The position numbers were made by a program. From Octopus sinensis (lineage: Eukaryota), in assembly GCF_006345805.1 (NCBI RefSeq), contig NC_042997.1, forward strand, positions 5,766,001 through 5,830,000: a stretch of DNA of 64,000 nt, given 5' to 3'. This document shows, piece after piece, positions 58,891-60,901 of the stretch (position 1 is the first letter of the stretch; each line of letters begins with the position of its first letter).

Positions 58891-58956
<66 letters not shown>

Positions 58957-60839
58957 CAATTAAGGAACGGCCATAATAGGCCATTCACCCACTAGAAATA
59001 ACAGCCAAAGCTTCTACCGCAAATAAAGATCAATTCCGTAAACAGGAGAAAATTAAAAAAACATTTACCCTGTAATTTCTTGTACGGTATACCGTTTCAT
59101 CCGTTGTTTAATGGTAAACCAACCTAATTAAATTAAATCAAGCCAATCTTCCATAAGCCCTCGGATTCATCAGCAGAAATAGCTCTCGGGACAGATAATT
59201 ACACGAGGCATCTCCAATCTTGCCAAGTCAATATCTGACCTAAAATTTTCAAATCGTCGCACTCGCGCCAAATTTATCGGCAGCAAATAAATATCAGCCG
59301 TCGATTCCATTACGGAATTAACCAAAAAATTCATAATTAATCAATATAGGGTGGCAAGGAAAATTTTGTAGAATTTTATTGCCACCAGCGGCCCAGCGGG
59401 AAAAAAATTAAATAGTCATAGACCATTTTTAAGTTCAACATTAACAATTAAGGAACGGCCATAATAGGCATTCACCCACTAGAACTAACAGCCAAAGCTT
59501 CTACCGCAAATAAAGATCAATTCCGTAAACAGGAGAAAATTAAAAAAACATTTACCCTGTAATTTCTTGTACGGTATACCGTTTCATCCGTTGTTTAATG
59601 GTAAACCAACCTAATTAAATTAAATCAAGCCAATCTTCCATAAGCCCTCGGATTCATCAGCAAGAAATAGCTCTCGGGACAGATAATTACACGAGGCATC
59701 TCCAATCTTGCCAGTCAATATCTGACCTAAAATTTTCAAATCGTCGCACTCGCGCCAAATTTATCGGCAGCAAATAAATATCAGCCGTCGATTCCATTAC
59801 GGAATTAACCAAAAAATTCATAATTAATCAATATTTTCCTTGCCACCCTATATTGATTAATTATGAATTTTTTGGTTAATTCCGTAATGGAATCGACGGC
59901 TGATATTTATTTGCTGCCGATAAATTTGGCGCGAGTGCGACGATTTGAAAATTTTAGGTCAGATATTGACTTGGCAAGATTGGAGATGCCTCGTGTAATT
60001 ATCTGTCCCGAGAGCTATTTCTTGCTGATGAATCCGAGGGCTTATGGAAGATTGGCTTGATTTAATTTAATTAGGTTGGTTTACCATTAAACAACGGATG
60101 AAACGGTATACCGTACAAGAAATTACAGGGTAAATGTTTTTTTAATTTTCTCCTGTTTACGGAATTGATCTTTATTTGCGGTAGAAGCTTTGGCTGTTAT
60201 TTCTAGTGGGTGAATGGCCTATTATGGCCGTTCCTTAATTGTTAATGTTGAACTTAAAAATGGTCTATGACTATTTAATTTTTTTCCCGCTGGGCCGCTG
60301 GTGGCAATAAAATTCTACAAAATTTTCCTTGCCACCCTATATTGATTAATTATGAATTTTTTGGTTAATTCCGTAATGGAATCGACGGCTGATATTTATT
60401 TGCTGCCGATAAATTTGGCGCGAGTGCGACGATTTGAAAATTTTAGGTCAGATATTGACTTGGCAAGATTGGAGATGCCTCGTGTAATTATCTGTCCCGA
60501 GAGCTATTTCTTGCTGATGAATCCGAGGGCTTATGGAAGAGTGGCTTGATTTAATTTAATTAGGTTGGTTTACCATTAAACAACGGATGAAACGGTATAC
60601 CGTACAAGAAATTACAGGGTAAATGTTTTTTTAATTTTCTCCTGTTTACGGAATTGATCTTTATTTGCGGTAGAAGCTTTGGCTGTTATTTCTAGTGGGT
60701 GAATGGTCTATTATGGCCGTTCCTTAATTGTTAATGTTGAACTTAAAAATGGTCTATGACTATTTAATTTTTTTCCCGCTGGGCCGTTGGTGGCAATAAA
60801 ATTCTACAAAATTTTCCTTGCCACCCTATATTGATTAAT

Positions 60840-60901
<62 letters not shown>

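What the first reader, a model, noticed from the sequence alone, without database searches (positions are those of the whole stretch)
58952..60841. Young hammerhead-ribozyme element (489-nt unit) inserted as a four-ribozyme palindrome in (TA)n: candidate cephalopod retrozyme/circRNA system
Seen: each unit holds a full type I hammerhead with an 8-bp stem I, CUGAUGA, a 5-bp stem II with a 58-nt loop, GAAA, a 4-bp stem III with a UAUA loop and a GUA cleavage site. Unlike minimal Penelope hammerheads, stem III can form within one monomer. The copies are almost identical, and no RT or nuclease is encoded. Established: tandem hammerhead repeats (non-LTR retrozymes, newt satellite 2, Penelope pLTRs) self-cleave into monomers with 5'-OH and 2',3'-cyclic phosphate ends that can circularise. 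Inference: cuts after 60115 and 60604 would release a 489-nt RNA. The arms exceed one unit and do not start at the cleavage site, which fits rolling-circle reverse transcription of a circular template by a Penelope RT in trans.
Basis: partly seen in the sequence, partly recalled or inferred. Interest (0 to 1): 0.9.

Follow-up and report, generated by a model that had tools for sequence, protein, structure and literature searches.

The report
Young hammerhead-ribozyme retroelement, inverted insertion
A recently inserted, non-coding 489-base repeat carrying a self-cleaving hammerhead ribozyme sits as a head-to-head palindrome inside a TA microsatellite, and it looks like a new member of the known animal "retrozyme" class rather than a new kind of element.

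Summary
Window 58952-60842 is a near-perfect palindrome of tandem ~489-nt units inside (TA)n. Each unit carries a complete type I hammerhead. A strict descriptor finds 3 sites in the window and 0 in 300 shuffles. The minimum-energy fold is the hammerhead three-way junction. Rfam Hammerhead_1 is the top hit on the 131-nt stretch, but only at 20.5 bits against a gathering score of 34.

Three corrections:
- The fourth ribozyme has a 1-nt deletion in stem I and no longer folds as a hammerhead.
- The "58-nt loop" is predicted to be a long imperfect extension of stem II.
- "Cephalopod" could not be tested.

No ORF or Pfam domain lies in the unit.

The element fits the published non-LTR retrozyme class. 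Its head-to-head, more-than-one-unit arms, (TA)n target and internal start points match published Penelope-like integration. Whether the template was circular or multimeric stays open. Self-cleavage, circular RNA, copy number and any pLTR parent were not testable here.

Verdict: new member of a known kind, moderate interest.

The parts
58878..58953 (.). Left (TA)n flank of the insertion. It shares 2 nt (AT, 58952-58953) with the end of the element.
   Evidence: TRF; sequence
58952..59834 (-). Left arm, 883 nt, sense on the - strand. It covers unit positions 224-489 (59834-59570), 1-489 (59569-59083, 487 nt) and 1-131 (59082-58952). It carries 4 private variants, 3 of them 1-nt deletions.
59075..59180 (-). 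Damaged hammerhead. A 1-nt deletion in the 5' strand of stem I (near 59176) leaves a bulged stem I. The nominal cut is after 59083. Rfam Hammerhead_1 gives 13.2 bits, and the MFE fold is not a hammerhead.
59562..59668 (-). Intact type I hammerhead with stems of 8/5/4 bp. The cut is after 59570 on the - strand.
   Evidence: descriptor
59835..59849 (+). 15-nt spacer at the centre of the palindrome. It is unit positions 209-223, the 3' half of a predicted hairpin (unit 185-221). AT at 59833-59834 can belong to either arm (2-nt self-complementary microhomology).
   Evidence: sequence
59835..60842 (+). Right arm, 1008 nt, sense on the + strand. It covers unit positions 209-489 (59835-60115), 1-489 (60116-60604) and 1-238 (60605-60842). 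It carries 3 private substitutions.
60017..60123 (+). Intact type I hammerhead, cut after 60115. Helix III plus its loop (60103-60114) is a perfect 12-nt palindrome.
60506..60612 (+). Intact type I hammerhead, cut after 60604. It has one private U-to-G change (60541) in the stem II extension.
60116..60604 (+). The 489-nt monomer that the two intact + strand ribozymes would release. GC is 36.8%. The predicted circular fold keeps the hammerhead free, at -136 kcal/mol, z = -4.8.
60840..60899 (.). Right (TA)n flank. It shares 3 nt (TAT, 60840-60842) with the end of the element.
   Evidence: sequence

Best explanation
This is one recent insertion of a non-autonomous, non-coding retroelement of the animal non-LTR retrozyme type. 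Its unit is 489 nt and carries one type I hammerhead.

Shown:
- the unit, its tandem and inverted layout, and the (TA)n target;
- three complete hammerhead motifs and one damaged one;
- the absence of any coding capacity.

Inferred:
1. An RNA longer than one unit served as template. It was either a ligated circle copied round and round or an uncleaved multimer.
2. A Penelope-like RT/GIY-YIG endonuclease, acting in trans, nicked both strands of the (TA)n tract.
3. Each 3'-OH primed cDNA synthesis at an internal AU-rich site of the RNA, at unit 238 on one strand and unit 131 on the other. Both sites lie in a shared TA(T)ATTG(A)TTAAT motif, with 2-3 nt of overlap with (TA)n.
4. The two same-sense cDNAs, 2.07 and 1.81 units long, ended at or in the same hairpin (unit 185-221). 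They were joined through a self-complementary AT, each serving as template for the other's second strand. A snap-back of a single cDNA on itself is the alternative.
5. This gave the head-to-head palindrome.
6. [quoted passage not shown]
7. The left arm has only one sound ribozyme.
For: Hammerhead:
- Descriptor: 3 hits in the window against 0 in 300 shuffles.
- The MFE fold is the hammerhead junction, z = -3.97.
- Rfam Hammerhead_1 is the top hit over the full model 1-45, at 20.5 bits and E 0.0064 on 131 nt, with the same parse.
- Helix III plus its loop is a 12-nt palindrome. PMC4209133 (passages) describes small palindromic helix III loops as usual for metazoan type I hammerheads.

Retrozyme features:
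- Tandem period 487-489 nt and GC 36.8%.
- No frame over 67 aa, and no Pfam hit.
- The predicted circle is strongly structured, z = -4.8, 0 of 100 shuffles as stable, with the hammerhead left free. PMC7229834 (Results part 1, Discussion) reports the same for most metazoan retrozymes.
- Unit length is within the 51-972 bp reported in preprint 10.64898/2026.07.22.740005 (Results part 1).

PLE-type integration:
- Head-to-head arms, each longer than one unit, with 5' ends inward.
- Both flanks are (TA)n, while pure (TA)>=10 runs cover only 2.1% of the window.
- Published PLE traits match: partial tandems plus an inverted 5'-truncated copy, and (TA)n bias (PMC8557442, section 6 and passages); cutting and extension of both strands at AT-rich DNA, and internal RT start sites (PMC11167929, main text).

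Single template:
- All 7 variants are private to one copy.
- The outer ends share a motif that only about 1% of random position pairs match as well.
- The inner ends lie 15 nt apart, flanking a -13.9 kcal/mol hairpin.
Against: - Rfam's curated threshold is not reached: 20.5 against 34 bits. Nothing is found in the whole-window scan or the 2.2-kb scan.
- The four copies are near identical, so there is no covariation support.
- The 10.1-11.1 pair is A-U. From recall, G-C is usual there and changes lower activity in minimal hammerheads.
- The usual loop 1-loop 2 tertiary contacts cannot be recognised.
- There is no other copy of the unit in the 64 kb, and no RT or endonuclease domain in 150 of the 156 frames that passed my filters (of 279 frames of at least 60 aa). 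Mobility and a PLE partner therefore rest on analogy.
- The offset between the two outer ends is 107 nt, not the 30-40 bp PLE 'tail'.
- For its PLE, PMC11167929 reports initiation at a site not homologous to the target, and unprocessed RNA as the main substrate. This weakens both the microhomology reading and the circular-template reading.
- The hairpin at the inner ends is not exceptional: z = -1.72, with 11 of 200 shuffles as stable.
- The motif and hairpin observations are post hoc, from one locus.
Confidence: 0.65

Rival explanations
1. The 489-nt unit is not an independent element. It is the pseudo-LTR end of an autonomous Penelope-like element, and this locus is a heavily 5'-truncated tandem/inverted PLE insertion, that is, a solo pLTR array.
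For: PLE hammerheads lie in pLTRs, and PLE insertions are 5'-truncated, partly tandem and often inverted (PMC8557442, section 6). Xenopus retrozyme families are sister to PLE pLTRs (preprint 10.64898/2026.07.22.740005, Results part 1). The layout fits this as well.
Against: The head-to-tail junction recurs every 489 nt with no ORF sequence between units. The copied template was therefore itself a 489-nt repeat or circle. No RT or GIY-YIG domain was found in 150 window frames. Helix III is stable within one monomer, unlike the minimal metazoan PLE hammerheads (PMC4209133, passages).
Confidence: 0.15
2. A short hammerhead-bearing tandem repeat was made palindromic at the DNA level. A fold-back or template switch during replication or break repair at the fragile (TA)n tract would have done this, without reverse transcription shaping the inversion.
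For: The inner ends of the arms are only 15 nt apart with a 2-nt AT junction, which is typical of fold-back inversions. (TA)n can form hairpins (general knowledge).
Against: Both outer ends abut (TA)n at different unit positions, 131 and 238. The unique flanks differ. A simple fold-back would not produce this without a second switch. The published PLE signature explains all of these features at once.
Confidence: 0.1
3. The palindrome is an assembly or read artefact. The real locus would hold a single tandem arm.
For: PMC8557442 (section 6) notes that such structures often cause assembly problems. The 3 single-base deletions, all in the left arm, sit in 2-base runs and could be consensus errors.
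Against: The arms are unequal (883 against 1008 nt), end at different unit positions, carry private substitutions, and are embedded between different unique flanks.
Confidence: 0.05
4. The hammerhead-like motif is inactive. It would be a chance or decayed match inside an ordinary repeat, so no self-cleavage or circle occurs.
For: The Rfam score is below the curated threshold. The 10.1-11.1 pair is A-U, there is a large stem II insertion, and there is no covariation. Many metazoan PLE hammerheads cleave poorly in vitro (PMC4209133, passages; PMC11167929, main text).
Against: 0 hits in 300 shuffles, even with a laxer descriptor than the observed motif. All core positions are present, and the MFE fold is the hammerhead. 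The motif lies in a tandem non-coding repeat, exactly as in known retrozymes.
Confidence: 0.05

Closest known systems
Metazoan non-LTR retrozymes (Cervera and de la Pena 2020, PMC7229834; mussel Mytilus galloprovincialis repeats of ~350-390 bp)
   Same: A non-coding, low-GC, head-to-tail repeat of a few hundred bp with one type I hammerhead per unit. The predicted circle is structured and leaves the ribozyme free. The proposed life cycle is the same: self-cleavage, ligation by a host ligase, then reverse transcription in trans.
   Different: The unit is 489 nt, above the 170-400 nt RNAs of that paper but within the 51-972 bp of the 2026 preprint. Stem II is extended by 58 nt, and helix III is 4 bp. 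There are only about 2 units per arm. The insertion is a head-to-head palindrome; the word 'inverted' has 0 occurrences in PMC7229834. Expression and cleavage are untested here.
Penelope-like elements and their pLTR hammerheads (PMC8557442, PMC4209133, PMC11167929)
   Same: Tandem plus inverted 5'-truncated insertion layout. (TA)n or AT-rich target. Ends that are not at the RNA 3' terminus. A type I hammerhead in the repeated part.
   Different: No RT/GIY-YIG ORF. The repeat period is 489 nt rather than several kb. The hammerhead has a monomer-stable helix III rather than the minimal dimer-dependent form. The end offset is 107 nt rather than a 30-40 bp tail.
Newt satellite 2 / amphibian hammerhead repeats (as summarised in PMC7229834)
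   Same: Tandem hammerhead repeats transcribed and self-cut to monomers. Helix III with a palindromic loop that permits a double-hammerhead.
   Different: Those form long arrays in very high copy number and have a helix III of 1-2 bp. Here there is a single short inverted insertion with a 4-bp helix III.
Rfam RF00163 Hammerhead_1
   Same: Full-length alignment to the model, positions 1-45, with the same core. Stem II (UCC/GGA) and stem III (ACG/CGU) match the consensus.
   Different: The score is below gathering, 20.5 against 34 bits, because of the ~57-nt insertion in loop II. The 10.1-11.1 pair is A-U instead of G-C.

Membership tests
Hammerhead ribozyme, type I | Conserved core: C3 U4 G5 A6 N7 G8 A9, G12 A13 A14, A15.1-U16.1, H17 not G | tested here: met
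   Read at 60025-60031, 60100-60103 and 60114-60115. Descriptor hits (3 copies). The fourth copy keeps the core but has a stem I deletion.
Hammerhead ribozyme, type I | Three helices around the core, with helix I open and helices II and III closed | tested here: met
   Both the MFE and the centroid fold of 60010-60130 give exactly this, z = -3.97. This is not so for the damaged copy.
Hammerhead ribozyme, type I | Score at or above Rfam RF00163 gathering (34 bits) | tested here: not met
   20.5 bits. No hit at gathering, and none at E<=10 in the 2.2-kb scan.
Hammerhead ribozyme, type I | Loop 1-loop 2 tertiary contacts of canonical metazoan motifs | tested here: inconclusive
   Stem I is an unbroken 8-bp helix, and stem II continues past an internal loop. 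No recognisable loops. The mussel retrozyme hammerheads also lack most of these contacts (PMC7229834, Results part 1).
Hammerhead ribozyme, type I | Site-specific self-cleavage | not testable with these tools
   Needs in vitro transcription or host RNA ends.
Non-LTR retrozyme | Type I hammerhead in every tandem unit (the preprint's definition of an active element) | tested here: inconclusive
   3 of 4 are intact. Both are intact in the right arm. One of the two in the left arm is damaged.
Non-LTR retrozyme | Short head-to-tail repeats of a few hundred bp with low GC | tested here: met
   Period 487-489 nt. GC 36.8%.
Non-LTR retrozyme | No protein coding capacity | tested here: met
   Longest frame 67 aa. 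No Pfam family at E<=0.01, and only a 0.14 chance-level hit at E<=10. LTR, PBS and PPT motifs were not searched for specifically.
Non-LTR retrozyme | Dispersed multicopy family in the genome | not testable with these tools
   No eukaryotic genome collection is on hand. There is no second locus in the 64-kb window.
Non-LTR retrozyme | Expressed as linear and circular monomer RNA | not testable with these tools
   No transcript data. Only a predicted circular fold.
Penelope-like element (autonomous, or solo pLTR) | RT plus GIY-YIG ORF adjacent to the repeat | tested here: not met
   150 of the 156 filtered stop-to-stop frames of the window gave no RT or endonuclease family. Shorter or low-complexity frames were not scanned, and elsewhere in the genome was not testable.
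Penelope-like element (integration signature only) | Partial tandem plus adjacent inverted 5'-truncated copy, and an AT-rich/(TA)n target | tested here: met
   set against PMC8557442 (section 6) and PMC11167929 (main text)

The most novel reading that the evidence does not exclude
The locus is an almost unaltered record of a Penelope-type integration acting on a retrozyme RNA. Both DNA strands of a (TA)n tract primed cDNA at a shared internal motif, TA(T)ATTG(A)TTAAT, of a circular 489-nt template. Both cDNAs ran for about two turns, stalled at the same hairpin, and primed each other's second strand through a self-complementary AT.

If other insertions of the family repeat these start and stop points, the motif would be the first cis-signal known by which a retrozyme recruits a Penelope RT. 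The review PMC7761336 (passage) says the metazoan repeats show no conserved motif that could point to the autonomous partner.

A side consequence: read-through of the palindrome would give an ~880-bp perfect hairpin RNA that could feed small-RNA silencing or editing of the family.
Probability: 0.25. Interest if true: 0.6.

Novelty: new member of a known kind. Interest (0 to 1): 0.4.

Why it matters
Retrozymes are thought to spread through circular RNA copied by a borrowed reverse transcriptase, but the partner enzyme has been argued mainly from co-occurrence and pLTR similarity.

This insertion is very young: 7 private changes in about 1.9 kb. It keeps both target junctions, both internal start points and the inversion junction. 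It therefore gives concrete, testable predictions for how such an RNA is picked up and integrated.

It also shows that a plain Rfam scan misses hammerheads with a long stem II insert. Counts such as the 235 hammerhead_1 hits reported for the giant squid genome may therefore be underestimates.

In itself the element is an ordinary member of a described class.

Tried and rejected
- Rfam at gathering on the whole window found nothing. At E<=10 on 58800-61000 it returned only miRNA-like and sRNA hits caused by the palindrome itself. I rejected these as artefacts of the inverted repeat. No other ribozyme class appeared on either strand.
- BLAST of the unit against the window found no further copy.
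- Host identification failed. There was no tRNA. Four chance-level Pfam matches, all below the curated cut-offs, were the only hits in 150 frames.
- One ORF (46029-46442, - strand) reminded me, from recall only, of GIY-YIG-like invertebrate ORFs. It had no homologue among longer proteins or near-length proteins, and no Pfam hit at E<=10. I dropped the lead.
- The bacterial promoter/terminator scan is irrelevant to a eukaryotic locus, and I did not use it.
- Paper one search (hammerhead ribozyme plus squid, cuttlefish and similar names) listed 15 of 2,748 papers, none holding 'hammerhead ribozyme', so it was uninformative.
- Searches found no paper describing a cephalopod retrozyme in the held library. 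They did find the giant squid genome's count of Rfam hammerhead_1 hits.
- A TIR-bounded DNA transposon or MITE was considered and rejected. The two outer ends are different parts of the unit (positions 131 and 238), not inverted copies of one terminus.
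Full report
**What is there.** Window 58952-60842 is a 1.9-kb near-perfect palindrome embedded in a TA microsatellite. (TA)n lies at 58878-58953 and 60840-60899.

BLAST of one unit against the window, the repeat finder and arm-to-arm alignment give this layout:
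- Right arm, 59835-60842, sense on the + strand: unit positions 209-489, 1-489 and 1-238. Position 1 is the base after the ribozyme cut.
- Left arm, 59834-58952, sense on the - strand: unit positions 224-489, 1-489 (487 nt here) and 1-131.
- The arms therefore meet 5' end to 5' end. A 15-nt spacer (59835-59849) is present only in the right arm. AT at 59833-59834 could belong to either arm.
- The outer ends are different parts of the unit. They overlap the microsatellite by 2 nt on the left (AT) and 3 nt on the right (TAT), as read.
- There is no other copy of the unit in the 64 kb.

**How alike the copies are.** Cutting the arms at the ribozyme sites and aligning each piece to 60116-60604 gives 7 differences in about 1.9 kb, each private to one piece:
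- G at unit 426 in the middle right unit;
- two C-to-T changes in the last right piece;
- one 1-nt deletion in the inner left piece;
- one substitution and two 1-nt deletions in the full left unit.

No variant is shared between arms or between neighbouring units. All copies therefore trace to one template sequence. The three deletions sit in 2-base runs, all in the left arm, and may be assembly errors.

**The hammerhead.**
- stem I is 8 bp (60017-24 with 60116-23);
- CUGAUGA is 60025-31;
- stem II is 5 bp (60032-36 with 60095-99);
- GAAA is 60100-03;
- helix III is A-U plus three G-C pairs with a UAUA loop;
- GUA is cut after 60115, and the next cut is after 60604, giving a 489-nt monomer.

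My type I descriptor required stem I of at least 5 bp, stem II of at least 4 bp, and helix III of at least 3 bp plus the A-U pair. It finds three sites in the window: cuts after 60115 and 60604 on the + strand and 59570 on the - strand. It finds none in 300 dinucleotide shuffles of the whole window scanned on both strands.

The minimum-energy and centroid folds of 60010-60130 are the hammerhead junction, z = -3.97, with 0 of 200 shuffles as stable.

Rfam finds nothing at gathering in the window, and no hammerhead at E<=10 in 58800-61000. On the 131-nt stretch alone, Hammerhead_1 is the best family. It aligns over model positions 1-45 with the same parse, at 20.5 bits and E 0.0064, against a gathering score of 34. 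The shortfall comes from the ~57-nt insertion in loop II.

**Corrections to the observation.**
- The 58 nt are not a loop. They fold into a further 4 + 14 bp helix closed by 6 nt.
- Pair 10.1-11.1 is A-U where the Rfam consensus has G-C. From recall, that change lowers activity in minimal hammerheads.
- Helix III with its loop (60103-60114) is a perfect 12-nt palindrome. It could also form the extended helix of a double hammerhead, the arrangement PMC4209133 (passages) describes for metazoan motifs.
- The fourth ribozyme (59075-59180, - strand) has lost one base of the 5' strand of stem I. It scores 13.2 bits, E 1.7, and its minimum-energy fold is not a hammerhead.
- The locus therefore has three sound ribozymes. 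Only the right arm has two in a row.

**Coding capacity and surroundings.** The longest stop-to-stop frame in an arm is 67 aa. It has no Pfam match at E<=0.01, and only a chance-level one (E 0.14) at E<=10.

Of 279 window frames of at least 60 aa, 156 passed a complexity filter, and the 150 longest were scanned. None gave an RT, endonuclease or transposase family. There are no tRNA genes.

I could not name the host. Two protein searches with the most gene-like ORF found nothing. "Cephalopod" stays untested. The window's 33% GC and abundance of microsatellites are compatible with it but not specific.

**What it most likely is.** The element meets the sequence-level features of metazoan non-LTR retrozymes as described in PMC7229834 (Results part 1, Discussion):
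- low-GC, non-coding, head-to-tail repeats of a few hundred bp;
- one type I hammerhead per unit;
- no LTR-type features.

[quoted passage not shown] The unit's GC is 36.8%. Its length lies within the 51-972 bp of retrozyme consensus lengths in preprint 10.64898/2026.07.22.740005 (Results part 1). The predicted circular fold is -136 kcal/mol, z = -4.8, with 0 of 100 shuffles as stable. It leaves the hammerhead in its active fold, as PMC7229834 reports for most metazoan retrozymes.

**How it got there.** The layout is the published signature of Penelope-like integration.
- PMC8557442 (section 6 and passages) describes 5'-truncated partial tandems, often with an inverted 5'-truncated copy adjacent at the 5' end. 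It also describes a one-sided 30-40 bp tail and a strong bias for microsatellites, (TA)n for Naiads.
- PMC11167929 (main text) shows that a purified Penelope-like protein cuts and extends both DNA strands at AT-rich sites. It starts reverse transcription at two internal sites of the RNA.

Two same-sense cDNAs primed from opposite strands give exactly the orientation seen here: antisense on the left of the + strand, sense on the right. Pure (TA)>=10 runs cover only 2.1% of the window, so landing in one is unlikely by chance.

Three details are suggestive but post hoc, from one locus:
- The two outer ends share the motif TA(T)ATTG(A)TTAAT. About 1% of random pairs of unit positions match as well.
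- The two inner ends lie 15 nt apart. One is 3 nt 3' of a hairpin at unit 185-221 and the other is inside it. The hairpin is -13.9 kcal/mol but not exceptional, z = -1.72.
- The AT at the junction is self-complementary. That is what two same-sense 3' ends, or one snapping back on itself, would need in order to pair.

**What stays open.**
- Each arm runs through the cleavage/ligation site twice. The template was therefore longer than a monomer, but a circle and an uncleaved multimer are not distinguished.
- PMC11167929 found unprocessed RNA to be the main substrate in vitro, and initiation at a site not homologous to the target. This cautions against both the circle reading and the microhomology reading.
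- The 107-nt offset between the outer ends is larger than the PLE tail.
- Self-cleavage, circular RNA, copy number, and whether the unit is the pLTR of a full-length element all need the genome, transcripts or the bench.

**Rivals.** I give roughly these weights: solo pLTR array 0.15, DNA-level fold-back at the (TA)n tract 0.10, assembly artefact 0.05, inactive chance motif 0.05.

**Comparison and novelty.** Hammerhead tandem repeats of this kind are described in corals, jellyfish and a mussel (PMC7229834, Results part 1). They are also described in amphibians, fish, reptiles, insects and a coral (the 2026 preprint, Results part 1). A giant squid genome paper lists 235 Rfam hammerhead_1 hits (PMC6962438, passage). 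Penelope-like elements are annotated in Octopus vulgaris (PMC13282606, passages).

My library searches found no paper describing a cephalopod retrozyme. The word 'inverted' has 0 occurrences in PMC7229834. In the preprint and in PMC7761336 its one occurrence is a title in the reference list. Supplements were closed, and subscription journals are not covered.

I rate this a new member of a known kind. It has a long stem II insert and a monomer-stable palindromic helix III. Its integration scar is unusually well preserved, and that scar links retrozymes to Penelope-type machinery. Interest 0.4.

Noticed in passing
window 6489-6727, 13382-13612, 39598-39836 (+) and 40699-40937 (-): A ~240-bp interspersed repeat family, four copies at 79-86% identity. 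No Rfam family or tRNA matches. It could be a SINE- or MITE-like element.
   Followed up: no
window 53779-55115: 697 nt repeated at 97% identity with a 640-nt offset. This is a recent tandem duplication next to a long (TA)n tract at 53514-53853.
   Followed up: no
window 46029-46860, - strand: Two adjacent open frames of 138 and 120 aa. The tail of the first reminded me, from recall only, of GIY-YIG-like ORFs of invertebrate repeats. There was no Pfam hit at E<=10 and no homologue, so the lead is unsupported.
   Followed up: partly
window 58800-61000: The palindrome itself draws strong sub-threshold Rfam matches to plant miRNA precursor models, for example MIR8007 at 89 bits and E 7.5e-17. This shows how inverted repeats produce false miRNA calls. 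Read-through transcription of the locus would give a perfect hairpin RNA of about 880 bp.
   Followed up: partly
whole window: The window is very rich in microsatellites. It has 37 pure (TA)>=10 runs covering 2.1% of it, plus many (TAA)n, (AC)n and (TC)n arrays. GC is 33%. No recognisable protein-coding sequence appeared in 150 frames.
   Followed up: partly
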